A stretch of 55,895 nt of DNA, filler included, from Sphacelaria rigidula (taxonomy: Eukaryota), in NCBI GenBank assembly GCA_964200075.2. It is 3 parts of 3 records of this genome, joined end to end, with 100 filler letters (N's around TTAATTAATTAA, not from the genome) between each part and the next. Parts side by side here need not be neighbours in the genome. Positions count along the whole stretch, not along the records: positions 1 to 18,575 come from CAXNAA020000835.1; 2 more parts are not named here. The stretch is one strand, 5' to 3'. A program made the position numbers and the translations under genes. Shown piece by piece: positions 3,506 to 55,895 of the stretch. The first letter of the stretch is position 1. Every line of letters starts with the position of its first letter. The notes under the pieces were generated by a model. That model had not been told where the DNA came from, made no database searches, and saw only the letters and a program-made list of their open reading frames with translations.

Positions 3506-6500
3506 CGATCACGTGAACACTCCTCACCTCTCCGGACGATCACGTGGACACTCCTCACCTCTGCGGACGCACGGATTACGACCCTGCAGCCGGTGGTGCA
3601 TCCTCGCACAGGTGGGGGAGCAGAAAGCCGTTGGTATCGTGTTCGTATGAGCGACCCGTAGTTCCTGTCCCATGATCTGTTGGAGAGTTGCAGGCGACCA
3701 CTCGTGACCGGCAACATCATCGAAGTCGCAAGGCACCAGCACAACGCTTCACGGACACGACGTCAGGCCTTGGTCGATCGATTATTCTTCTCTCAGTACG
3801 TTTGTCGACCTATTCCGTCGATCGTCACTGTCTCCTGCCGTCGGCTCTTGGGCCTCTGTGCTGCTTCGTCAGTCATGCAATTGAAACAAGACGATCATGC
3901 ACTTGAAACAAAACAATCACGCGGGAAGTTCCGAGCCGCGCGGAAGAATGGTTGTGATCCAGACGATCACGCACCGCCGGCTGCGGTTGCGGACGAAGGA
4001 CCACGACGCAGGGCCACGACGCAGGGCCACGAAGCAGGCAAGGGGAATAATTGCATTGGTATGTCTGGTACCTCGCCTCCGAATGTGTCGGTATCTCACC
4101 GCCGTATCAAGGAGCTCGTCATGTATCTGTAGAAAGACGAAGATCCCTGCTGTCTCTCACGATCGTGGTGTGCCCCTCGAGCGTCCGCACATCATTCACC
4201 CCCCCCTTCATATCGGCGACTCCTGTCTGTAGCAGGAGTCGCTTTCTCGACACCCATCCCTTCCTCCGTCATGCCGCACTCCGTCTGCTTCGCTGAGTAG
4301 CCCACGCACCCTGACGGTCAGCGGGTACCCTGCAGCACGCGCTGCCCCGTCTGTACACGCACTGATCCACCGGCATCCAACGCGACACGGCTCGAGAGGT
4401 GTAACAGAAAATGATAAAAGCCAAGGTGGTGTTTGCGGGAGAGGATATCTCGTGAATAAAGAGCGTCAGAGAACGTATCCCGTGTAGGATTCGCCTTGAT
4501 CACACCGTCTCTGTCAGATCTCACATGTTCATGCTGAGCGCGTAGCGCTGCGTGGTGCAGCGTCTCAGTAAAGGACTTGTTCGAGATGGATAACAGCCAC
4601 CCGCCCTAGGCTTGCGAACTTGATCTACTCTGGGCCACCGTACCCGCCCCCTGGGGTGTAGAAAACGGGTACCGAGAGGAGTAGCGGGCGGGAATTGTCG
4701 CACACAGTGGATGCCGATCACACCACCGCAAGTAGAACAAGGTCGCGTGTAGTAGACGCGAGCCCGAACTTCCAAGTTGGCAGACTCGTCGAGTCGACCG
4801 CTGACTCTCGTATGAATGTCGCGCCAGAACCCCATCATGTTGGAAACAGCCTCGAGTAATGGTACCAGACCTAGTTGTTCACGAAGAAAACGTTCGTGAC
4901 CCCGCCAGCGCCACCGTGTGCCGCCCGCTGTGGGCTGTGCAGTGCATCCCACTGTTTGTTTCTCCTCCTTTTCGGCAGATGGGAAAACGAGAGACCGGCA
5001 CAGCGAGAACGCGATCACGTGGACACTCCTCACCTCTGCGGACGCACGGATTACGACCCTGCAGCCGGTGGTGCATCCTCGCACAGGTGGGGGAGCAGAA
5101 AGCCGTTGGCATCGTGTTCGTATGAGCGACCCGTAGTTCCTGTCCCATGATCTGTTGGAGAGTTGCAGGCGACCACTCGTGACCGGCAACATCATCGAAG
5201 TCGCAAGGCACCAGCACAACGCTTCACGGACACGACGTCAGACCTCGGGTGATCGGTACAGGGAATGCGTTGGGCATCAATCCAGCCGTCGTAGATAGAA
5301 TGACGGAGAGAGGCCAGTGTGTTTTGCAAGAACATATATCGATGGCTGTACGCAGCCCTTATCGCCCAGCGATTCCTGCTTGGTAGCCATTCCAGTATAC
5401 GTACGGGTACGTTCCCATGGTCGCTCGGTGCGTTGATGCACAAGGGCTGCGCAGGATCGTCCGTGGACCCCAGCGTTACGAGCATACCATACATCCACAA
5501 GTAGAAACGGGCAGGCGCAGAAATTATCTGCTCCCAGTCGACTACGTGTATATCGCTTGTTGAAATCGGAATGTGGGCTTGCTGTGCTCTACCCATTGCC
5601 TACTCGGCGAGAGAATCGAGTGACTGAGTGGTGAGGTCCGAACGCAAACGGGAAGATGTCTTTGCATGCAGAAAGCAACGCATTCACACCACCATGATCA
5701 TACTCGTTGATTGTTCCGTTTGTGTATCGACGGCTGTTGCGACCAGTGGACCGTGATACTTGGTCGCGATTTCAGGACGCCATGTCTCCGCCCTCGCATG
5801 TCCGCGGGGTCGTCGAGTGAGTGAAGTGTGCTGCAGATGGCTAAAGGCTTTCCGAAACGTGCGCTGTCGAAACCGTCAGATGCCGTTAAAGCTGGGACAT
5901 ATCGCCATCGGACGGCGGCGTAGGAAGAAGTGGTGTATCGTCCATCGATTTCGAAATAGTTGACTCGCGGCGCGAATGGACATTGCAAGGTAACCGGTAT
6001 ATCACTGTCGGACTGTGTTGTTTTTCGTGTCCTGTGCTTTGTCGGCGTCTTACGTCCGACGCGAAATGACCAAGACATGTGCATCGACTGCACGACTTCT
6101 GCTAGATGTATGAGTGTTGCAAGAGCTGCCCGCCATACTGTAGGCAGTACCTGCTGTGGAAATTGCAACATCGATGCCGTACATCCGGAGCTCGCCGAAT
6201 CGGCGTTCGTTGTGATTTTCAAATCGTCCCCGTTGCAAATCTCGTGAACACCATGCCCAAGACCTGATCTGCTCGCGTAGCTCGACTATGTTGATCGATC
6301 GGAGGGGTGAAATGTTTGATGTGACTGTTATTCCAGTACGGTTGGTCACCTGCTCCACCGATCGTCACTGTCTCCTACCGTCGGGTGTCGTGCCTCTGTG
6401 CTACTGCCTCAGTCATGTAATTGCAACAAAACACTCACGCAGCAGATATGGAAACCACGCGCAAGTATAGCTGCGATCATGACGAGTGCGCACCGTCCGC

Positions 6501-8089
6501 TGGTGCTGCGGACGGAGGGCCACGACAGAGAGCCACGACGCAGGCAAGGGAAATGATTGCAGTAATGTGCCTGGTACCACGCGTACGAATGCGTAGTTAC
6601 CGTCACTCACCGGAAGGTGGGGATACTGTTGGTTTTTCACCTCCGTATCAAGAAGCTCCTACTTCATCTGTCGATTATTTTTCCGCGCGAAATTCGCCGA
6701 CCATCTTGAGGTGCAGATATGGCGGATCTGATGCCGACACATTGAAGAGCTAGGTGTATGAGGTCAGGAACGAGTATGGGTACCCCATGCTGGTGACCTA
6801 CTTCATGATGAAATCTTCACGACGTCGTAATTTTCACGTTTTCTACGCGCCGATGATCGCATGGCACATGATGCTCCAACTCGCCCATCGCGCCTCCGAG
6901 AAACGAGGCATTGCTGGGAATGGTGCCGTTGTTGTAGACAAGCAATGAAGCCGCACCGGTAGCATAGATCTGACAGTTGCGGCAATCGGACGGATCGAAA
7001 TGGGTTTCGATCTCACACTGAACATGATCATGACCGTGTGATACACCTCATGATTAGTAGTCCGCCTCAAGCGCGGCTTGCGTGCATCCTGGAAGGGAGA
7101 AAATGCAAACCAATATCCGTCACAATGGTCAAACATCGCCAGCAGCTCGGACAACCCCACAAACTAACTACGACGCCGGATTTGCAGATAAATAAACGCA
7201 GCACTGGATAGATATCCCCAGTGTTACCAAACAATATCGCACCACACGACAGGCGGTGTGCCGAAAACGAGAAAGACGAAATGCCCTCATTCGTGTGTCC
7301 TTTTCTCGTCGAGAAGAGGTGGATTCCCCCTGTCTCTCACGATTGTTGCCCTTCCCCTTGGGTATCCGCACATTATTCGTACACCCCCTTCGTAACGACG
7401 AACTCCGTCTCAACAAGAGCTGCTTCCTCGAGACCCATCCCCTGCCCTGTCGTGCCGCACTCAGCCTGTTCCCAGGCATCATGTACGTCGACCCCGTATT
7501 AGAATCCAGCCCGCTTTGCCGCTGACCCGCGTCGGCCGGGTTCTCCTCCTGTGTCCCCTGGTATGCCCAACGTACCTCAAACTCGAGACGACTACCAACT
7601 AGTCCGGTCCCATGCCAGCACGTAATCGAACACCTGTATCATCGCTGAGTAGTCCACGCGCCCTGACGGCCAGCAGGTACCCTACAGTACGCGCTGACCC
7701 GTCTGCACACGCAATGATCCACTGGCGTCTGACGCGACACGGCTCGAGAGGTGTAACAGAAAAATAAAATGCCAAGGCGATGTTTGCGGGAGAAAATATC
7801 TCGTGAATAAAGAGCGGCAGAGAAAGCATCCCGTGTAGGTTTCCCCTTGAACACACCGTCTCTATCAGAACTCATATGTGCATGCTGAGCGCGTGGGACT
7901 GCGTGGTGTAGCGTCTCAGGAAGAGGGGTTCTTTGAGATTGATAATGGCCACCCGCCCTAGGCTTGCGAACTTGGGCTGCTATTGGCTACCGTAGCCGCC
8001 CCCTGGGGTGTGGAAAAGCGGTACAGCAAGGAGTAAAGGGCGATAATTGTCGCACACGGTGGATGCCCATCACACCACCGCAAGTAGAA
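3506..8089 (+). repeat. Mosaic of direct repeats of unknown origin, probably a large decayed element
   Basis: 3537-3766 is nearly identical to 5012-5241; 4291-4737 resembles 7643-8089 (447 bp, diverged); ~3819-4110 resembles ~6359-6660; ~4130-4290 resembles ~7270-7470. Confidence 0.8.
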
Positions 8090-9064: not shown

Positions 9065-10562
9065 GTTCCAGCGCATTCGTACAATATCATAGATAGTGGG
9101 GTGTGTTACACTGAACACAAGACAGGAGTGCGATAGTGTTTCAAATTGAACTTCGTTTTAAAAGTCAAACAGTGTTGCAGCAGGACGCATGAGTATTCAC
9201 AAGTACAGGCCGTGGATTTTTCTAACATTGCGGCATTACAAGTATAGGCTGTGATTCGCAAACACGGTACAACTGTAGCCTATACTTGTCACCCTGTACT
9301 ACTGCATGTCCGAGTCCAGGCTGTACTCTACAAGCACAGACAGTACAGTAGTGCAAGGTTGGATTTTGCGAGCAGTACGAGTTTACGAGTATAGGCTGTG
9401 CTTCGCAAACACGGCACAACTGTAGTGCAAGGTTACAAGTATGGGTTGTCCTCGCGAGCACAGTAGGTTGCTGTGCTTTGCAAATACAACAGTACAGTAC
9501 AGTACAGCGATACAGTGCAGTACAGTACTGTCAGAACCACAACTGGCTTGTGGTGTCCTCGCAGGTTCACGGGCTGGGGTGTTCAGAGTTCTCGCTTGTG
9601 TTGCGGCTTGCTGATCGTGGTCAAGAGGTGTCGAGTGGGTGTCCCAAAACGATTTTGTCTCGTTGAGGTTTTGTTATACTGCTTAGAGTGTACTCTGGTC
9701 TTGGACTTGCTGCTGGTGTGGCTCTCGGAAGACTGATCCCGATGGGCCAGTAGCACACGCTCAAATCCCCCTTGAACCCCTGTCTACATTCACATATCCA
9801 TGGTGCTCATTCTCCTCGCAAATAGCAAACCTTCAGTCCCGCATATTCCTACGGTCAACTGCAACTTCCTGTTGTTGGCTGAACCTACTTGTATCGAACT
9901 GCACATCTATCTGAGATATATCACCATGCCAGCTTTCCTCAAAAGCGAGCACTGCATGCGGGATCCTTCTTTATTCGTATATCGTACACCTGCTAAAGCT
10001 ATATACGTCGGTGCATACTTCAACACAATATCCTTACAAGTATATTATACCAATAATTGCTCTGCGTAATGGTAGCTGAAATCCAGGCCAAGTTTGTGCT
10101 CACGATATAAGACCATCCTGTGAACAAGGTATGGACCCATGTACCAGGTGAGTACCTGTGAACAAACACCCGAATACAGGTACGTGAGAGAGCAAACTGC
10201 CCCTGCGCAGAAACCAACACATCAGCCGTCACCCTGGACGACGTCATGTCTCAAAAAAAGACAACAATCAAACGACACTGAGACAGCCATTCCTCGATCA
10301 CCTTCCCATGATCGAACCCTTGTCAGTCCCCGGCATCCCTTGAACCAGAACGGAATGTCTTCATGTCACGTAGAAAACAAAACGGGCGACAAGAACAAAG
10401 AACAAGCTAACAAACGCGAACAAACCACCCGAAAGAGTCTGATCGTCCATATACCTACGATGCCCTGGCGTTGTTCAAACCCAAAACCAAAAGACAACAA
10501 CACAAGCATTGTATCCGAGCACGACAAAAAAAACAAAAAAATCCAGTAAACCGTTTCATTAT

Positions 10563-10582
10563 AAAAATAATAATAATTATAA

Positions 10583-10621
<39 letters not shown>

Positions 10622-10664
10622 TATAATAATAATAATAATTATTATTATTATTATTATTATTATT

Positions 10665-10709
<45 letters not shown>

Positions 10710-10896
10710 ATAAATATATTTATAATCATAATTATAATAATATATTATTACTATTATTATTACTATCATTTCTATTTCTATTACTTTTACTTTTACTATT
10801 ACTATCACTGTTATTACCATAATTACTATTATTACTCTTACTATTATTACTGTTATTATTACTATTATTATTACTATTATTATAATTATAATTATA

Positions 10897-10958
<62 letters not shown>
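10563..10958. repeat. Compound trinucleotide microsatellite (AAT)n-(TTA)n-(TTG)n-degenerate (TAY)n-(TTA)n
   Basis: Directly visible. Confidence 0.97.
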
Positions 10959-10959
<1 letters not shown>

Positions 10960-11365
10960 GTGAATCACACTTATGAGAACCCAACATACCTTATAGTTCT
11001 GTCCAAGAACCTTTTATTGGTTCTATTCATGGGAACGTTCTAGCACTGAGGAAGATTCCTGAGACGTCCGCTAGATCTTTGGAGGATGGTCTATTTGTCT
11101 CGGAATATCGGGACAATATCAGACCGAATATGCCCAAGATTCACAGAACGTTGTACACACCCAACCCAAGGCGATCTACACGTTGAACTGAACTCTAGGC
11201 CAATGTCTATCGTATGAAGAGTCACAGAACGTTGTCCACACGAAACCCAAGGCGATCTACACGTTGAACTGAACTCTAGGCCAATGTCTGTCGGTACATG
11301 GTCCTTTGATCCATGTCCTGCTGTCTGAGATGAGCTGCATGGAGAGATTGCACCACATATCCACC
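10959..11365 (+). repeat. Left LTR copy, 3'-truncated, with an internal 81-bp tandem duplication
   Basis: Matches 18020-~18345. The unit TCACAGAACGTTG...GGCCAATGTCT occurs twice (11141, 11222) versus once in the 3' LTR. Confidence 0.88.
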
Positions 11366-12245
11366 ACTCAACATCTCGTATATTTTTATATACGCAAGAC
11401 CCTAGCACGATCTACAAGAAGGATGTTGATTCACCTCAAGGTGTAATGGGGGTAGATTGTATCTCAATTGACATCAAGTGGCAACATAATGTTTTTCGAC
11501 AATTTATTTTCACATTTTTTCTCGTAAAATACATGTCAATATTGCACGTTTTCACCTATGTATTTTGTCCCATTTTATATGCAAACAGCACACAACAATG
11601 CACTGAACCTGTCAGCCATGATTGTCCACACCGAATAATATTATTATGAAGTGATTAACAGTTCCATAGATAACATAATTGTCTGGCCACAATGTTATCT
11701 CGTTGCTCATGAACAAGGCACTACAGGATCGAAAATAAGCATTTTTTCTTCATATTTTTATGCTCATTTCATTTTATTTTGTCCAAAAGACAAAAATTTC
11801 AACCCTGCAGGTCGCCGTTTTACACGCACTGTCTGGATATATTCAGTCTATGATTGAGTCTCTTACCAATGATCGATATAGACTGAGTGATATTCTCAAA
11901 TCGTGTTAACTGCGAAGAAATTAAGCCTGCCTGTCAAAATCACTTCAAATTTATTGATCCTGAAGTACTATTTTGCAAATTCAAAATAAATACAAATGTC
12001 TGTCCGGTACTTATGCGTTCGAATATTTGTTTGCATACATGTCTGTCATTCTGTGAATATTACGCTCAAGTGTAAAAGTAAACACTTTAAAAGTATTTAT
12101 ATATCTATCAATAAATGTTGAACCATATCATCATCTGGGATTATTTAATATTTTCATTTTTGACGGAGTGAGAGCTCTAACACCGTCACAACTAGGGGGG
12201 TAATGTGAATCACACTTATGAGAACCCAACATACCTTATAGTTAT

Positions 12246-13330
12246 AATGTAACGTCAATTCCGGCGACCACTGACACACCCGAAAAACTGTCCAGCAGTT
12301 GTCGTACGCTGAAATACTGTCCAGACCGAAAACGGTCACATTGACTCGAGCAGATGTCAAACGCTTGCCTTGATTAATTGGTAGTGTAGAAATCGCCAAT
12401 GCGAGCGATGTAGATGTGCAGTCTGTACTAAATCAATATCGTACGGTCGCAGGATTTCGCGCCCAATCTGTCAGACCAAATGACCCACAATATGCTGACA
12501 GACTCGCTTTTGAATATTTCAGTCTTATTTTGGATGGTCCAGCTGCCACAATGTATCAACAGCAATATCAGGATGCATCAATTGGCAAATATCTGTCATA
12601 AACACTGACACCAACGATAAGGCCGGTTCGTTTCTTCCCCCTTCCACCTAGAAGGAGCTGTCTAATGCTGTACTAGATCTATTGATGCCTAGTCACAGTG
12701 TCGAAGAGTGCGCTCTTCGTCTCGCTTCGTTCAAGATGGAAAAACACGAGTCTACCCAAAATCACGCTCTTCGTTTTCGTCCTGTCTTGACACGTTTCGA
12801 GAGATCTGTCGATAGAGCAACCCCTGGTCGTACGCCCTAGGCTGTCATGTCTGTCGTTTTGTGGCAAAATGGCCTCGCACCAGCCATTCAATGCCTTCAA
12901 CTGTCAGAATAGCCAGTCACCTCTTCTCGTGAGGCTGTCGATCGTGCTAGACGCCACGAGGGTGCTAGTCTCGTTGGTGGTGCCACGACCAGTGCATTAT
13001 CATTCACACACATACCCAACCGCTTCGCAATTGCTCAACAACAGTTCGCTCATGATGCTGCTTCAAGGGGTTACAATACCTACCATAAGAAGAACAACCA
13101 ACGCAAACATTCGTCAAGGAAGGAAAAGCGAAAGCCAACCACAACGTCGAACCTACTCCTTCACACGAAGGAGAACGGAAAGGACGCTCGCATTGCACGT
13201 GGGACCCGTGTGAGAAGAAACCTGGCCACACGTACGAGAACTGTTATCAGAGGAAACGGTTTGAAATCCAATAACAGCAGCTTCAACGGAAGAAGATCAA
13301 GAGAGCGAAAACTTCAGCTAAGCGTCTTGT
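12246..13330 (+). pseudogene. gag remnant with a CCHC-type zinc knuckle
   Basis: Lies between the LTR stub and the protease; frameshifted coding-like segments; CTWDPCEKKPGHTYENC at 13194-13244. Confidence 0.6.
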
Positions 13331-13799: not shown

Positions 13800-16700
13800 T
13801 TTCGTCACGACGTGTCCGTGTTGCTGGATATGTCGATGACCATCACGTTGATGACGTGACTATCGACACTGCTACTGACGTGCCTATTGTTTCAGTAGGA
13901 CGGCTGAGAACCCTCCCAAGAATGCGAAACATGCCACCCAAACCAGTTCCAACTGCTGCTTTTTCATTGAGCGCAGCGAACGGTTCACCAATGAATGTTC
14001 TAGGTTTCATCGATTTTTCCCTGACTCTTGGTGACGTCACTCGTACAGTTACCGCACTCGTTGTCCCATCACTCGGACCTGATTCTATACCTTTAGACAA
14101 CCAAGTCACGTCTGATTCGGAGCAATATTAAACTGGGAAAATCAAATACTTTCTTTCACATCAACGGGTCTGTCAACCCCAGCAATTCACCGCAAAAATA
14201 CTGCTACACAACGTCACACTAATGCCTGTTTTACAGCACCAAATTTCTCTTCGAAATCTATCGCTACTGTCAATAGCAATGCTGAGGCAATTAAAGTTAC
14301 TTTGTGTGAACGTGTGAATTTTAAACAAATGCACGAAGCTCTTGCAGTACATTTCACAAATTATATTCCACCTGAAGACTGTACAGTGATAATCGAGCCG
14401 CGAATAGTAACTGGGGAGGAATTTTCACACGACCCGGAACTGATACCCTTCCAAAATATTGTTATAGTCCGCACTCTCTCTACATGGAGAGCATCGGATG
14501 GGTCTGTAGCTGTGCAAATAGCCAACCCGTCTACAGATGGTGTAGCCCTGCACGCAGGACTATGTCTCGGACACCTGTTCACAGTTACAGTCACAACTCC
14601 GACACAAATTATTGTCAGTGCAGTCGCGAAAAATCCACAGAGAGCACAAGAAGTCAAACATGCAAGGTCTGAACTTAAAGGTCTTATATCCAAAGCGTTT
14701 TCAACGACAACGCTTACTACCGACCAACAGGCATCTGTTCTAGATTTATGTGCTAATTTTTGACCTGTTTTTTCGCTGTCCATGACAGAATTAGATCGCT
14801 GTACTATTGCAGAAGCAATTTTCCCTGTCCCTCCTGGTACTCGTCCTGTAGACAGACCTCCTTATCGTTCCAGCCCACGTGCTTCCGCAGTAATTGACAA
14901 GTGTGTCAAGGAAATGCTGGATTGGGACATTATTGAAAAAAGACCAAGCCCATGGGGTAGCCCATGTACCATTGTAGCCAAACGCAATGGTAGTCCACGG
15001 TTCTGTGTTGATTATTGTCACACCCCTAACCGTCATATTGTCCGCAAGAGTTGGCCCATGCCAAATATTGAATCTTGCCTTGACGCAGTAGGTGAAGCTC
15101 TATACATTACTCTATGCGATGTCCCCAGCGCATTCTGGCCAATTCCAGTGGCCAAAGAACACGTGGACCGGACTGCATTCGTCACACCAAACGGCAAGTA
15201 CTGTTTTACGCGTATGCCTTTCGGAGTGTGCAATGCAGCTTGGCTTTTCCAACATATGATGTCAATGGCTCTAGGTCACCTTGGCCCAGAATCTGGTGTT
15301 CTGTCATATATGGATGATTTAATTTGTATCAGTTCCACATTCAAAAATCATTTTCAATCATTGGAGCAAATAGTTTCAGCACTCCAAGCAGCAGGCTTAA
15401 CTCTAAAACCATCGAAAATTCAATTCGGACAGAAAGAAATGGAATACCTCGGACATATTATTTCTACGAAAGGAATTTCTGTCAGCAACAACCGCATAGA
15501 AGCCATCCAAAAGCTGCCCATGCCAACAAGCATCAAAGATCTCAGATCAGTTTTAGGCATGTTAAAGTTTGTCCGGCGTTTTGTCAAAGATTATGCTGAC
15601 ATCACAGCACCACTTGTCGATCAAACTCGCAAGGAATTTGCCCTGAAAATAAATTTAAAGAAAGCTTGGGGTACAGCACAAGACGCAGCCTTCACGAAAA
15701 TTAAACAAGTGCTAGCTTCTGCTCCTGTCCTTCACTTTCCTGATTTTTCGAGAGAATTCGTAGTTCATACCGATTCTTCAGAAATTGGCGTAGGCCCTTT
15801 TCTCGCTCAGCTACGCAAGGATAGTGTCGACAGTAAAGAAATCGATATAGTGGCATACTAAAGGAAACGCTTTTCTAAACGCCAATGCCATTATAGTCCA
15901 ACTATGAAAGAATGTCTCGCTGGTGTCTGGTCTTTTGTACACTGGAGGCCATATCTCTGGGGTCAACATTTCACCTGTCATGGAGACCATCAAGCTCTCA
16001 TGTACTTGTATAACACGCAAGATACATCTAACATGTTGACACGTTGGGCTATAGCACTTCAAAATTGCGATTTCACTGTCAAGCGTGTCCCAGGAAAATT
16101 GAATCTTATACCCGACTCCCTGTCTCGTCTTTTCACAGAAGTGGGCGGCGAAGAAATACCTTCTGAACCGAGGTTAGCAGCAATCTGTCGAAATGTACCA
16201 GAAAATAAACTATTTCATTCGCCTGCACCTAGAGAATACGAAGTATCCGCCTATGACTTGGACGATTTAGTACCCGTGGAAAGCGACCGTGAACTATTCT
16301 CGCGTGCAGTATCGGTTTTTCCTGCTGTTGATTCAGTGAACTTACTCGAACAACAGAAAAATGAATTCAATCAATATTTTGAATATTTTCTCGAGCCGAG
16401 CTCAGCTCCTGTCCCAGCTCAACAATCGAAATCGAGCATGAGCAAATTCCTTGTCCACGACGATTTATTATACCGTTCTTACCGGCCTGGTCACTTACGC
16501 CGCCGCGATGATTTTCGCGATCAATTAGTAGTACCCGAATCATTACGGAAACTAATAACCAACGCGTGTCATGACTTACCATCTTCCACGCTACATTCGA
16601 CAAAGTGCGTGATCGATATTGGTGACCTACAATCCATACTGATGTACAACAACATGTCAACAGTTGTGTATCATGTCAACACCGTACAACTTCTCATCGT

Positions 16701-17735
16701 CCACCCACCTTACCTGTGAGACATCGTCCAGTCGAACGCACATTTCAATGTGTTGCAGTAGACCTTGTCGAATACAAATCTCTATCAGAAGGCGATCGAT
16801 ACATACTGTCAGTGATCGTTCATCTTACGAGATTTGTTATACTAATTGCCATTAGAACAAAGACGCCACTACAGTTGTTCGAGAACTTGTTGAGCATGTT
16901 ATCTCGGTGTTTGGACCACCCGAAACTCTTCATTCTGATCAAGGAACAGAGTTTGAAAACCAATTGGTCGACGATTTACAAACTGTTTTTGGATATAAGA
17001 AAAACACATAGCCGCATATCGTCCACAAGGCAATTCTGTCCTGGAACGAGTACACAGCACTGTCCATAATATGCTAGCCATGTATAGCAATTTAGCCTGC
17101 GATAACTGGGCTGAATTACTACATTTTGTCCAACTGGCACACAGCAGTATATTCATCACCACTCGAGGAAACACCTCATTATTTAATGTTCGGAAGAGCA
17201 GCTGTACTCCCAGTGGATCTAATCCTTGGCGTTCCAGCCACATCTGCACCGCAAACACGACTTGATTACTCTCGTCAAACTGTCAACAACTTACAGCTAG
17301 CATACGAGCTAGCCCGGCGCAATCTCAAAGAACGCGCAGATAAACAAGCGGTTGCAAATGAGAAATTATCGTTTCCCAGTTTCAAACAAGGCGATAATGT
17401 TTTGATACATCGCCCATATCACGAGTCTTACGGTCCCAATCCTAAGCTTTACAGCCCATGGCATGGTCCGTACGTAGTCCGAATGCAACTGTCACGAGTT
17501 ACCTAGCCAGTAAACCAAATGATCCAGCGGAAACAACTGTTCACCTTGGTCGCATGAAAAAATACAACGATCCTATATCGTTACCTGTCCCCGACCTTTA
17601 AGCGCTCGACGACAAATTCTTAGGAACAACTCTTCCAGTCCCAGACCTTGATGGTTCAGTGCACAAGGTACAAGGTAACGTTAGGACCATATACGGTAGA
17701 AAATATTGATGGTCATACGCGGGGGGTTTGAGCTA
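13800..17735 (+). pseudogene. gypsy pol pseudogene (protease, RT, RNase H, integrase, possible start of a chromodomain)
   Basis: Protease VTIDTATDV...LSAANGSPMNVLG; RT SPWGSPCTIVAKRNGSPRFCVDY, RMPFGVCNA, SYMDDLI; RNase H VVHTDSSEIGVG, KECLAGVW, DHQAL; integrase zinc region (CHD...CVSCQ), core VAVDLVEY, HSDQGTEFEN, ERVHST; WHGPY motif; GPYTVENIDGH near 17685. In-frame stops at 14761 and 15859 plus frameshifts. Confidence 0.93.
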
Positions 17736-18019
17736 GAAAGTCTATCTGTCAAATCACTTCAAATTTATTGATCCTGAAGTACTATTTTGCGAATTCAAAA
17801 TAAGTACAAATGTCTGTGCGGTACTTATGCATTCGAATATTTGTTTGCATACATGTCTTTTGTCATTCTGTGAATATTACGCTTAAGTGTAAAAGTGAAC
17901 ACTTGAAACGTATTCAAATCCTTTCAAGGAATGTTGAATCATCTCATCATCTGAGATTATATAATTATCTAGTTTTTGACGGAGTGAGAGCTCTAACACC
18001 GTCACAACTAGGGGGGTAA

Positions 18020-18528
18020 TGTGAATCACACTTATGAGAACCCAACATACCTTATAGTTATGTCCAAGAACTTTTTATTGGTTCTATTCATGGGAACGTT
18101 CTAGCACTGAGGAAGATTCCTCACATGTCCGCTATATCTTTGGAGGATGGTCTATTTGTCTCGGAATATCGGGACAATATCAGACCGAATATGCCCGAGA
18201 GTCACAGAACGTTGTACACACCAAACTCAAGGTGATCTACACGTTGAACTGAACTCTAGGCCAATGTCTGCGGTACATGGTCCTTTGATCCATGTCCTGT
18301 TGTCTGAGATGAGCTGCATGGAGAGATCGCAGATCATCCCCACCTCAGCTCACAACAACTTCTTCTCTTCACCTCCACTCTGTCTGTCAAGCTCACTCGA
18401 GCCCTGTCCTGTCCACTCAACGCTACCGATGTAGCTTAACTGGAAAGAGCACTCTGCGTCTTGCTCGCGTTTCGCAGAGAGAGTAAGGGTTCGAATCCCT
18501 TCGTCGGTATTCTTATCATATACGACTC
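18020..18528 (+). repeat. 3' LTR of the gypsy element
   Basis: Begins with TG directly after the PPT (18010-18016), is homologous to 10959-11365, and runs until the (TTA)n microsatellite resumes. The exact 3' end is uncertain. Confidence 0.8.
18425..18509 (+). tRNA. tRNA-like sequence (pseudo-tRNA, anticodon not assignable), apparently within the LTR
   Basis: Acceptor ACCGATG/CGTCGGT plus discriminator A; D arm GCTT-AACTGGAAA-GAGC; anticodon stem CTCTG/CAGAG closing 18 nt; variable loop AGAGT; T arm AAGGG-TTCGAAT-CCCTT; intact A-box and B-box. Confidence 0.8.
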
Positions 18529-18575
18529 TTATTATTATTATTATTAGTAGTAGTAGCAGTAGTAGTAGTAGTAGT
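18529..18575. repeat. (TTA)n/(GTA)n microsatellite, right flank of the gypsy element
   Basis: Directly visible; runs into the gap. Confidence 0.95.
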
Positions 18576-18675
18576 NNNNNNNNNNNNNNNNNNNNNNNNN
18601 NNNNNNNNNNNNNNNNNNNTTAATTAATTAANNNNNNNNNNNNNNNNNNNNNNNNNNNNNNNNNNNNNNNNNNNN
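18576..18675. other. Assembly gap with artificial TTAATTAATTAA spacer
   Basis: 44 N + TTAATTAATTAA + 44 N = 100 bp. Confidence 0.97.
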
Positions 18676-37240: not shown

Positions 37241-37340
37241 NNNNNNNNNNNNNNNNNNNNNNNNNNNNNNNNNNNNNNNNNNNNTTAATTAATTAANNNN
37301 NNNNNNNNNNNNNNNNNNNNNNNNNNNNNNNNNNNNNNNN
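37241..37340. other. Assembly gap with artificial TTAATTAATTAA spacer
   Basis: 44 N + 12-bp spacer + 44 N. Confidence 0.97.
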
Positions 37341-38334: not shown

Positions 38335-38470
38335 TGGGGTATACTCATGATCATGCATGCCATAGTCATAAGACCATTGACCTCGCAGCGGGGGGGGGGG
38401 CGTACTCATTTGTTGCTTGCCTTAGTCATTTGACCATTGACCACGCATCCCTTTCGAGACGGAGCAGCAG

Positions 38471-38505
<35 letters not shown>
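38335..38505 (+). repeat. Two tandem copies of a dispersed ~70-bp module followed by a poly-G tract
   Basis: GTACTCAT...GTCAT..GACCATTGACC.CGCATCCC module, also at ~1830-1960, ~40415-40495, ~48430-48505, ~53783-53870 and 55735-55895. Confidence 0.8.
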
Positions 38506-55734: not shown

Positions 55735-55895
55735 GGGGGGTGTACTCATTCGTTGCTCGCTTCGTCGTTTGACCATTGACCACGCATGCCTTTCCACACG
55801 GAGCAGGGGGGAGGGCGGGGTGGCGGGGTGTACTCATGATCATGCATGCCGTAGTCATCAGACCATTGACCTCGCATCCCTACAAAGCCGGGACG
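55735..55895 (+). repeat. Two tandem copies of the dispersed ~70-bp module in a Sec61a intron
   Basis: GGGGTGTACTCAT...GACCATTGACC.CGCAT twice; runs off the window end. Confidence 0.8.

What the first reader, a model, noticed from the sequence alone, without database searches (positions are those of the whole stretch)
18425..18509. Complete tRNA-like cloverleaf apparently built into the LTR of a pol-coding gypsy retrotransposon
Seen: an 85-nt cloverleaf with all four stems paired and intact Pol III A/B boxes. It lies about 400 bp into the 3' LTR and about 20 bp before the host microsatellite resumes. The anticodon arm is abnormal: 18 nt between the stems, extendable to 7 bp (CTCTGCG/CGCAGAG), with no U33. 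It therefore looks unable to decode, yet the acceptor and T arms are intact. Known: LTR elements normally borrow a host tRNA as primer, and small-RNA genes in LTRs occur in non-autonomous TRIMs (e.g. 5S rRNA in plant Cassandra). Inference: this gag-pol family may carry its own primer tRNA or a Pol III promoter/insulator. Caveat: both upstream LTR copies break off before this point and the PBS is deleted, so LTR membership is inferred only from the flanks.
Basis: partly seen in the sequence, partly recalled or inferred. Interest (0 to 1): 0.8.

Follow-up and report, generated by a model that had tools for sequence, protein, structure and literature searches.

The report
tRNA-like module inside algal gypsy LTR
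A sequence that looks like a complete tRNA gene is a built-in part of the terminal repeat of a jumping-gene family in a brown alga, a layout so far described only for tiny gene-less elements, and it probably acts as a docking site for RNA polymerase III, not as a working tRNA.

Summary
The cloverleaf at 18425-18509 (+) is real: Rfam tRNA 51.3 bits, E 3.8e-8, and ARAGORN finds it. Public assembly contigs of the same alga from three studies were laid at 80% likeness or more. They show a multi-copy repeat with a sharp 5' edge at 18020 that runs on through the tRNA-like part to at least 18513. Six of the 32 listed contig pieces, all from other, diverged copies, bridge LTR body and cloverleaf. So this is not a host tRNA gene beside the insertion.

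The RT is nearest to Ectocarpus proteins (74% identity), so the host is a brown alga. With introns allowed, ARAGORN reads tRNA-Lys(CTT) with U33 and a 9-nt intron at 37/38. The third anticodon base differs between this copy and most other copies, so a decoding role is unlikely.

The closest known kind is Helenus/TRIMp3 (Kojima 2024): tRNA-like sequences in the LTRs of miniature non-coding elements. Here the LTR is 511 bp and flanks a degraded 7.5-kb RT/RNase H/integrase element. Self-priming could not be tested because no PBS was seen. The Pol III promoter role is inferred by analogy only. Verdict: new variant of a known kind, moderate interest.

The parts
10560..10958 (.). AT-rich microsatellite block ((ATT)n, (GTT)n and related units) that forms the left flank of the element
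   Evidence: Sequence; repeat family D1.
10959..11365 (+). Left LTR copy, incomplete. It matches the right LTR only up to 18344, lacks the spacer and the tRNA-like part, and carries an 81-bp internal tandem duplication (11136-11212 / 11217-11293).
   Evidence: BLASTN gives 95.6% over 250 nt and 91.9% over 148 nt. Families D2, D7 and D15. Alignment A1. No Rfam match at E up to 1 in 10900-12400.
11937..12245 (+). Second copy of the element's 3' untranslated end, the purine tract and the first 42 nt of the LTR (equivalent to 17751-18061). It breaks off at 12245.
   Evidence: Families D8 and D10. 42 of 42 identical at 12204-12245.
14764..16719 (+). Degraded pol: reverse transcriptase and RNase H, split over frames
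   Evidence: Pfam RVT_1 E 5.3e-23, RT_RNaseH_2 E 2e-13, RT_RNaseH E 7.6e-17. ORFs are broken by stops and frame changes. Nearest named relatives are Ectocarpus sp. proteins at 74% identity.
16626..17506 (+). Integrase remnant. The evidence is weak: a zinc-finger match below Pfam's cut-off.
   Evidence: Integrase_H2C2 E 0.0017, 18.9 bits against a cut-off of 25.5. Relative P0002 carries PF00665 behind RT/RNase H.
18010..18016 (+). Purine run (polypurine-tract-like) just before the LTR. It is also present at 12195-12201.
   Evidence: Sequence.
18020..18530 (+). Right LTR, about 511 bp, the full form of the family repeat
   Evidence: The 5' edge is fixed by loose ends at 18020 in 19, 18, 18 and 3 contigs of X1, X2, X4 and X6. 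Cover continues to 18513 or beyond. Past the window's own divergent letters the tail stays conserved for about 17 letters, then agreement falls.
18345..18424 (+). CT-rich LTR segment between the point where the window's left LTR stops matching and the cloverleaf. It is part of the family repeat.
   Evidence: Six of the 32 listed pieces bridge 18344/18345 with 31 or more letters on each side: records 6, 7, 8, 13, 23 and 24.
18425..18509 (+). tRNA-gene-like module: acceptor 18425-18431 / 18502-18508; D arm 18434-18450; T arm 18485-18501; discriminator 18509. No CCA is encoded.
   Evidence: Rfam RF00005 51.3 bits; ARAGORN; fold.
18432..18443 (+). A-box-like motif (TRGCY...YGG pattern)
   Evidence: Sequence compared with the pattern quoted in PMC10886601, section 3.5.
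18460..18472 (+). Anticodon CTT (18460-18462) and 9-nt intron-like insert (18464-18472) in ARAGORN's intron-allowed reading. At 18462 most other copies carry a different base.
   Evidence: table 3: 18462 differs in 21, 22, 23 and 4 contigs of X1, X2, X4 and X6.
18488..18498 (+). B box, exact match
   Evidence: the only match in the window at up to 1 mismatch. At 18493 most copies carry the other purine.
18510..18530 (+). Last ~21 nt of the LTR after the cloverleaf, the presumed integrase-recognised end. It has no run of four T.
   Evidence: Sequence. The loose-end consensus at 18513 is conserved for about 17 letters in 9, 7, 10 and 2 contigs.
18531..18575 (.). (ATT)n then (AGT)n microsatellite, the right flank, running to the contig end
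   Evidence: N run from 18576.

Best explanation
The cloverleaf is a tRNA-gene-derived module that is an integral part of the roughly 511-bp LTR of a multi-copy Ty3/gypsy-type retrotransposon family of a brown alga. It sits at the downstream end of the LTR, 21 nt from the LTR terminus, in the same orientation as pol.

An ancestor of the family acquired it once, from a tRNA gene or its primary transcript and not from a mature primer tRNA. Three features point that way: it keeps an intron-like insert at 37/38, it has no CCA, and it is in sense orientation. Since then it has been copied with the LTR at each retrotransposition.

The copy in the window is an old, rearranged, non-functional element. 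Its left LTR has lost the module.

The RNA is most likely not a decoder. Its most likely activity (inferred, not shown) is that of an internal A/B-box Pol III promoter and TFIIIC binding site, as proposed for Helenus/TRIMp3 and shown for Cassandra. That would give short Pol III transcripts from each LTR, or a chromatin boundary effect, while full-length genomic RNA is still made by Pol II.

Confidence differs by step:
- Membership in the LTR: about 0.9.
- Any benefit to the element from Pol III recruitment: about 0.35-0.4. The rest of that probability goes mostly to an inert passenger.
For: Shown:
1. The sequence is tRNA-like at E 3.8e-8.
2. laid 334, 373, 324 and 61 contigs of X1, X2, X4 and X6 (three studies) at 80% likeness or more.
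   - Loose ends at 18020 have near-random flanks, with agreement 0.39-0.41 in the three larger runs.
   - There is no fall in cover at 18344 or 18425.
   - Six of the 32 listed pieces (1115 more were not shown) bridge 18425 with 31 or more letters on each side: records 8, 14, 15, 16, 23 and 31. Each has 16-40 other letters plus 5-22 gaps, so they come from other copies.
   - 25, 26, 18 and 7 contigs cover 18430, and 33, 32, 40 and 7 contigs cover 18493, with the family's majority letter.
3. The 80-nt segment upstream of the cloverleaf is also part of the repeat (records 6, 7, 8, 13, 23, 24). This does not fit a separate Pol III-transcribed SINE that starts at the tRNA 5' end.
4. The same LTR start follows the element's 3' end in other copies (records 1, 2, 3, 9, 18, 25) and in the window itself.
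5. Pol domains are present.
6. At 18430 most copies carry the base that makes pair 6-67 Watson-Crick, where the window has T-G. So the founder's acceptor stem was fully paired, and this copy has decayed.
7. The B box is exact and the A-box pattern matches the one in Helenus.
8. Intron-allowed reading, with no CCA and no T4 terminator.
9. The anticodon's third base differs between copies.
10. Control: ARAGORN found a tRNA in 1 of 60 loci around distant gypsy RT relatives and none in pairs. These were the 60 longer of 80 loci fetched. A tRNA-like LTR is therefore not a general gypsy trait.
Against: - No single listed contig spans internal region, LTR and cloverleaf. The chain is built from overlapping pieces.
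- The laid stretch ended at 18530, so the 3' edge of the repeat is read only from a 30-letter loose-end consensus.
- The best DNA holders may be the very sample the window was assembled from. Only X4 and X6 are other studies.
- Within the window the left LTR lacks the module, and the LTR does not end in the usual CA.
- No evidence of selection on the module. The variable sites listed are about as dense in it (4 in 85 nt) as in the LTR body (18 in 405 nt). No compensatory pair change was seen. Only 40 of 135 variable sites were shown.
- No transcription data. There is no Pol III terminator in the 67 nt after the module, and T runs in a 7-kb internal region would stop Pol III, so a Cassandra-like Pol III life cycle cannot apply to full-length copies.
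Confidence: 0.6

Rival explanations
1. Inert passenger. A tRNA gene fragment or tRNA-derived SINE landed in, or was captured by, the LTR of the family's founder shortly before amplification. It has simply been carried along and has no effect on the element or the host.
For: The density of listed variable sites is the same inside and outside the module, and no compensatory changes were seen. The window copy has decayed in the module at CpG-type sites as elsewhere. Copies that appear to lack the 5' half exist: joints 18326-18355 to 18464-18471, one contig each. The window's left LTR also lacks the module. Kojima proposes a SINE insertion into an LTR as the origin of such elements.
Against: In most copies all stems are paired and both boxes are intact. 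Sequences with intact A and B boxes usually bind TFIIIC whatever their origin (general knowledge, not tested here). The module has persisted across subfamilies that differ at several LTR sites.
Confidence: 0.3
2. Self-supplied primer. The LTR-encoded RNA is cut out by RNase P and RNase Z, receives CCA, and primes minus-strand synthesis at a PBS complementary to its own 3' end.
For: The module lies 21 nt from the LTR end, so in a 5' LTR it would sit next to the PBS. Its acceptor and T arms are intact. In one run (X1), the 12 letters that follow the LTR end in the loose-end consensus start with TGG and share 9 of 12 letters with the predicted PBS.
Against: That consensus is a plurality of 9 contigs with low agreement, and it differs in X2 and X4. 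It was also noticed after the fact. In contig 1 no 18-nt window matches the complement of the RNA's 3' end at 80% or more. The 12-nt probe gives only chance-level matches: one at 10 of 12, against a shuffle mean of 0.65, and none beside an LTR end. For Helenus, Kojima looked for such complementarity and found none.
Confidence: 0.05
3. Not part of the LTR. The gypsy family integrates at a fixed distance upstream of Pol III genes, as Ty3 and DGLT-A do. Its target is a multi-copy tRNA-like SINE or tRNA gene family, so many independent insertions look like 'LTR plus tRNA'.
For: Ty3-type elements are known to target Pol III start sites (review PMC5911963, search listing only). The two LTRs in the window stop matching 80 nt before the cloverleaf. 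Summed cover is highest over the T arm, so extra copies of that part may exist elsewhere.
Against: The 80 nt between 18344 and 18425 are conserved among diverged copies (six bridging records). Upstream flanks of independent SINE or tRNA gene copies would be unrelated. No cluster of loose ends near 18344-18354 appears among the 24 rows shown (284 rows were not shown). The 21-nt tail after the cloverleaf is conserved too, and there the repeat ends.
Confidence: 0.04
4. Single host tRNA pseudogene, or an assembly artefact at a contig end.
For: The cloverleaf lies 67 nt from the end of a contig that stops in a microsatellite.
Against: Dozens of diverged contigs in four runs of three studies carry it joined to LTR sequence.
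Confidence: 0.01

Closest known systems
Helenus (TRIMp3), Kojima 2024, PMC10886601. Read: abstract, sections 2.1, 3, 4 and the legends; supplements not seen.
   Same: A tRNA-derived sequence with conserved box A (TRGCY...YGG) and box B (GGTTC) inside the LTRs of an LTR retroelement. It is unlikely to encode a working tRNA because the isotype and anticodon are inconsistent. There are many LTR copies.
   Different: Helenus are TRIMs of 311-1263 bp with LTRs of at most 323 bp and no coding capacity. They have been reported from fungi, animals and Selaginella only. Here the LTR is about 511 bp, flanks about 7 kb with RT/RNase H/integrase remnants, and the host is a brown alga. Kojima kept only TRIMs under 1000 bp although 'not a few' Repbase LTRs had tRNA-like parts. 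He argued that autonomous partners should not share such LTRs.
Cassandra TRIMs of plants (5S rRNA-derived LTR segment). Known here through Kojima's account and search listings.
   Same: A small Pol III gene module carried in both LTRs and spread by LTR retrotransposition.
   Different: The module derives from 5S rRNA, not tRNA. Cassandra is non-autonomous and 565-860 bp long. Pol III transcripts are reported for Cassandra. No such data exist here.
tRNA-derived SINEs (SINE2)
   Same: A tRNA-like head with A and B boxes, a degenerate anticodon region, and a simple-repeat sequence close behind it in this copy.
   Different: SINEs begin at the tRNA-like 5' end and are moved by LINEs. Here 405 nt of conserved LTR precede the module, and the repeat ends 21 nt after it.
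Ty3 / DGLT-A type integration next to tRNA genes
   Same: A gypsy-type LTR close to a tRNA-like Pol III unit.
   Different: In those systems the tRNA gene is host DNA outside the element. Here the spacer, the cloverleaf and the tail are all part of the repeated LTR.

Membership tests
Helenus / TRIMp3 | tRNA-derived sequence with box A and box B inside the LTR | tested here: met
   Rfam tRNA 51.3 bits; exact B box; TRGCY...YGG pattern by eye; inside the family repeat.
Helenus / TRIMp3 | TRIM: whole element under about 1-1.3 kb, no coding region | tested here: not met
   The LTRs flank about 7 kb with RVT_1, RT_RNaseH and a weak integrase match. The LTR of 511 bp exceeds the longest Helenus LTR of 323 bp. 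Whether short derivatives also exist in the genome was not testable.
Helenus / TRIMp3 | PBS after the 5' LTR and PPT before the 3' LTR | tested here: inconclusive
   A purine run lies at 18010-18016 and at 12195-12201. No PBS was seen next to an LTR end in this rearranged copy.
Helenus / TRIMp3 | 4-5 bp target-site duplication | tested here: inconclusive
   Both flanks are (ATT)n, so any 5-mer matches trivially.
Ty3/gypsy LTR retrotransposon | Two LTRs in direct orientation around pol with the order RT - RNase H - integrase | tested here: met
   LTR pair at 95.6% and 91.9% identity. RT and RNase H domains, with a zinc-finger remnant behind them. Integrase support is weak because the match is below the cut-off.
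Functional nuclear tRNA gene | Canonical cloverleaf scoring above the family threshold | tested here: met
Functional nuclear tRNA gene | 7-nt anticodon loop with U33 and purine 37; anticodon stable among copies; standard spacing between D and anticodon stems | tested here: not met
   The loop with U33 exists only in a register shifted by one base, which leaves an extra base after the D stem. Position 32 is G. The third anticodon base differs between this copy and most copies.
Functional nuclear tRNA gene | Pol III terminator (run of T) shortly downstream | tested here: not met
   No run of four T between 18510 and the contig end at 18575, nor in the conserved tail of other copies.
tRNA-derived SINE | The repeat unit begins at the tRNA-like 5' end, and upstream flanks differ between copies | tested here: not met
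   Diverged copies align through the 80 nt upstream and the LTR body.

The most novel reading that the evidence does not exclude
This gypsy family encodes its own replication primer. The LTR-borne tRNA-like RNA would be made by Pol III or cut from the genomic RNA by RNase P and RNase Z, would receive CCA, and would prime reverse transcription at a matching PBS. The element would then not depend on any host tRNA species. It would also be a possible autonomous ancestor of the TRIMp3 elements.
Probability: 0.05. Interest if true: 0.85.

Novelty: new variant of a known kind. Interest (0 to 1): 0.48.

Why it matters
LTRs that carry small Pol III genes were known for miniature, gene-less elements: Cassandra, and since 2024 Helenus and Ajax. 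It was argued that their autonomous partners should not share such LTRs (PMC10886601, section 4.2).

A tRNA-like module fixed in the LTR of a pol-coding gypsy family would be a first example from brown algae. The claim that none is in print rests on my searches, which found no such report. These searches cover open-access text only, and Repbase and the paper's supplements were not seen.

Such a module would also:
- offer a route by which TRIMp3 elements could arise from autonomous ones by internal deletion;
- inflate tRNA gene counts in annotations of this alga, as Helenus does in rust fungi;
- place many potential Pol III/TFIIIC sites around the genome.

Tried and rejected
- The whole genome of the window is not held, so copies could not be collected directly.
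- Earlier scan findings: nothing for this genome or sequence. The word search gave only unrelated items.
- An exact 20-mer from the T arm to the tail (18494-18513) found 0 stretches in metagenome contigs and 0 in viral contigs.
- The RT-profile scan of metagenome contigs gave only distant relatives at 32-37% identity. They served as a control and were not family members.
- No RNA holder was listed by the look-up of sequencing runs. X6-X8 are marked 'RNA?' as a guess only, so nothing is said about expression. X6's contigs are used only as further contigs that carry the junction.
- By eye, the left LTR's downstream sequence (11372-11395) seemed to resemble the LTR tail. BLASTN at word size 7 did not find this, so I dropped it.
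- By eye, 12368-12463 seemed to hold a D-arm-like string and a string complementary to the tRNA-like 3' end. Local alignment scores were reached by 74 of 300 and 197 of 300 shuffles, so I rejected them as chance.
- A TGG-initiated string at 12377-12393 could be a PBS. It lies 131 nt from the LTR stub, and without the host's tRNA set it could not be judged.
- Reading a PBS from the loose-end consensus was rejected as too noisy, because the three runs disagree.
- The joints that skip the 5' half of the cloverleaf are single contigs at low likeness. I treated them as possible deletion variants only.
- An origin by read-through of the primer tRNA was rejected. That would place the tRNA complement, without intron, on the + strand (reasoning from the standard reverse-transcription scheme).
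- ORFs of 200 aa or more in the other two contigs of the window gave no Pfam match at E up to 0.1: 0 of 6 tested.
- Slips: searches (search term too short; wrong frame) returned errors. I corrected or dropped them.

Full report
**Observation.** The window holds one tRNA-like sequence, at 18425-18509 on the + strand.
- Rfam's tRNA model matches it end to end at 51.3 bits (gathering score 29, E 3.8e-8). This is the only match above threshold in 55,895 bases (alignment).
- ARAGORN also finds only this one.
The folding energy alone is unremarkable: z -1.27, with 27 of 200 shuffles as good.
- The B box is exact. The A-box region shows the TRGCY...YGG pattern (compared with the pattern quoted).
- No CCA follows the discriminator. 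No run of four T follows before the contig ends.

With introns allowed, ARAGORN moves the anticodon stem by one base. It then reads a 7-nt loop with T33, anticodon CTT (Lys) and a 9-nt intron at the canonical 37/38 position. 'No U33' therefore depends on the register. That reading costs an extra base after the D stem and has G at position 32.

**Surroundings.**
- The window is three contigs joined by N44-TTAATTAATTAA-N44 linkers. The first contig ends at 18575, 67 nt after the cloverleaf, inside a microsatellite.
- Upstream lies a degraded retroelement. RVT_1 and RNase H domains are split over frames, followed by a weak integrase zinc-finger match.
- The RT is 74% identical to proteins named from Ectocarpus sp. 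CCAP 1310/34. In that search 163 proteins had E of 0.001 or less among 2221 candidates. The host is therefore a brown alga.
- The right LTR starts at 18020, just after a purine run.
- A left LTR copy, 10959-11365, matches it at 95.6% and 91.9% but only up to 18344. It carries an 81-bp internal duplication.
- A second fragment, 11937-12245, repeats the element's 3' end and the first 42 nt of the LTR.
- No tRNA remnant is detectable around the left copies.
- Both outer flanks are (ATT)n. This fits one insertion into a microsatellite but makes the target-site duplication uninformative.

**Is the cloverleaf part of the LTR?** No genome is held for this window, so I used public runs.
- Ten runs were listed, and eight hold part of the stretch.
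- I laid Logan contigs of X1 and X2 (one study), X4 (labelled algae metagenome, a second study) and X6 (a third study) on 17700-18530 at 80% likeness or more. That placed 334, 373, 324 and 61 contigs. Most were 80-99% alike, so they come from other copies of a repeat family.
- The family's 5' edge is sharp. At 18020 there are loose ends in 19, 18 and 18 contigs of X1, X2 and X4, with agreement only 0.39-0.41, which means many different flanks.
- From there cover continues, with no fall at 18344 (where the window's left LTR stops matching) or at 18425, up to 18513.
- Of the 32 pieces listed (1115 more were not shown), six bridge 18344/18345 and six bridge 18425 with 31 or more letters on each side. 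Each piece carries 14-40 other letters plus gaps, so none is the window's own copy.
- After 18513 the contigs run on with about 17 conserved letters that correspond to the window's tail, and then agreement falls.
- The repeat unit is thus about 18020-18530: 405 nt of LTR body, the 85-nt module and a 21-nt tail.
- Caveats: no single listed piece spans everything; the laid stretch ended at 18530; X1 and X2 may be the assembly's own sample.

**What the copies say about the module (table 3).**
- At four positions inside the module the window differs from most or many other copies.
- At 18430 the majority base turns the window's T-G pair 6-67 into a Watson-Crick pair.
- 18493 is a purine exchange in the T loop that keeps the B box.
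- 18466 lies in the intron-like insert and is polymorphic.
- 18462 is the third anticodon base, so the anticodon is not constant.
- The founder therefore had a fully paired cloverleaf with intact boxes, and the window's copy has decayed.
- Listed variable sites are no rarer in the module (4 in 85 nt) than in the LTR body (18 in 405 nt). No compensatory change is visible. Only 40 of 135 sites were shown. There is no evidence of selection for or against.

**Mechanism.**
- Shown: the module is inherited as part of the LTR.
- Inferred about its origin: it came from a tRNA gene or pre-tRNA. It has an intron-like insert, no CCA and sense orientation. A primer tRNA copied by read-through would appear as an intron-less complement.
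- Inferred by analogy about its activity: it recruits TFIIIC and Pol III.
- It cannot drive a Cassandra-like Pol III life cycle for 7-kb copies. T runs would stop Pol III, and the LTR has no terminator after the module. Full-length RNA must still come from Pol II.
- A role in short derivatives, in boundary formation, or no role at all remain open.

**Self-priming was not testable.**
- This copy shows no PBS at an LTR end.
- No 18-nt window of contig 1 matches the complement of the RNA's 3' end at 80% or more. The 12-nt matches are at chance level.
- Candidate likenesses in 12246-12600 are chance.
- The letters beyond the LTR end start with TGG in X1 and share 9 of 12 letters with the predicted PBS. 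The three runs disagree, however, and agreement is low. I report this as unexplained and not as support.

**Comparison with what is known.**
- The literature search led to Kojima 2024 (PMC10886601; abstract, sections 2.1, 3, 4 and legends read; supplements closed).
- Helenus are TRIMs with tRNA-like sequences in their LTRs. They occur in fungi, animals and Selaginella, are 311-1263 bp long, have LTRs of at most 323 bp, mostly cannot encode a working tRNA, and show no complementarity between the tRNA-like part and the PBS.
- The paper notes that 'not a few' Repbase LTRs contain tRNA-like parts but kept only TRIMs under 1000 bp. It argues that autonomous partners should not share such LTRs.
- The present case meets the defining LTR feature but fails the TRIM criterion, and it lies in a lineage not on the Helenus list.
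- Searches for a report in brown algae or in autonomous elements found none. A 2026 sugar-beet paper only cites Helenus in passing (passages read).
- As a control, ARAGORN found a tRNA in 1 of 60 loci around distant gypsy RT relatives. These were the 60 longer of 80 loci fetched, at 32-37% identity.

**Verdict.**
- LTR membership is supported (about 0.9).
- The primer idea is untested and unlikely (about 0.05).
- The Pol III module role is plausible but not shown.
- This is a new variant of a known kind, of moderate interest.

Noticed in passing
window 18576-18675 and 37241-37340: The window is not one continuous piece of genome. Three contigs are joined by 44 N, a 12-nt all-frame stop linker and 44 N, so features must not be read across these points.
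   Followed up: yes
window 11136-11212 and 11217-11293: 81-bp tandem duplication inside the left LTR copy. The right LTR has one unit (18197-18273).
   Followed up: partly
window 11937-12245: A second copy of the element's 3' untranslated end, the purine tract and the first 42 nt of the LTR lies between the left LTR and the coding region. This suggests a tandem or recombined arrangement (LTR, short internal part, LTR stub, full internal part, LTR). In one search, other copies' sequence upstream of 17738 resembles this fragment's upstream sequence more than the window's own 3' copy does.
   Followed up: partly
window 12377-12393: A TGG-initiated string that could be a primer-binding site lies 131 nt after the 42-nt LTR stub. 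It could not be judged without the host's tRNA set.
   Followed up: no
window 3537-8089: Several direct repeat pairs 84-98% identical: 3537/5012, 4290/7642, 4416/7767 and 4572/7924, three of them about 3.35 kb apart. They point to another repeated element or a segmental duplication in the first contig.
   Followed up: no
window 38421-38489 and 55760-55828: A 69-nt repeat ending in a long G run occurs in the third contig, 17.3 kb apart.
   Followed up: no
L013 5373-5445 (-): This is the only one of 60 metagenome loci around distant gypsy RT relatives with a tRNA call. A tRNA-Ala(AGC) lies on the opposite strand about 4.3 kb after the RT match, possibly at the element's edge.
   Followed up: no
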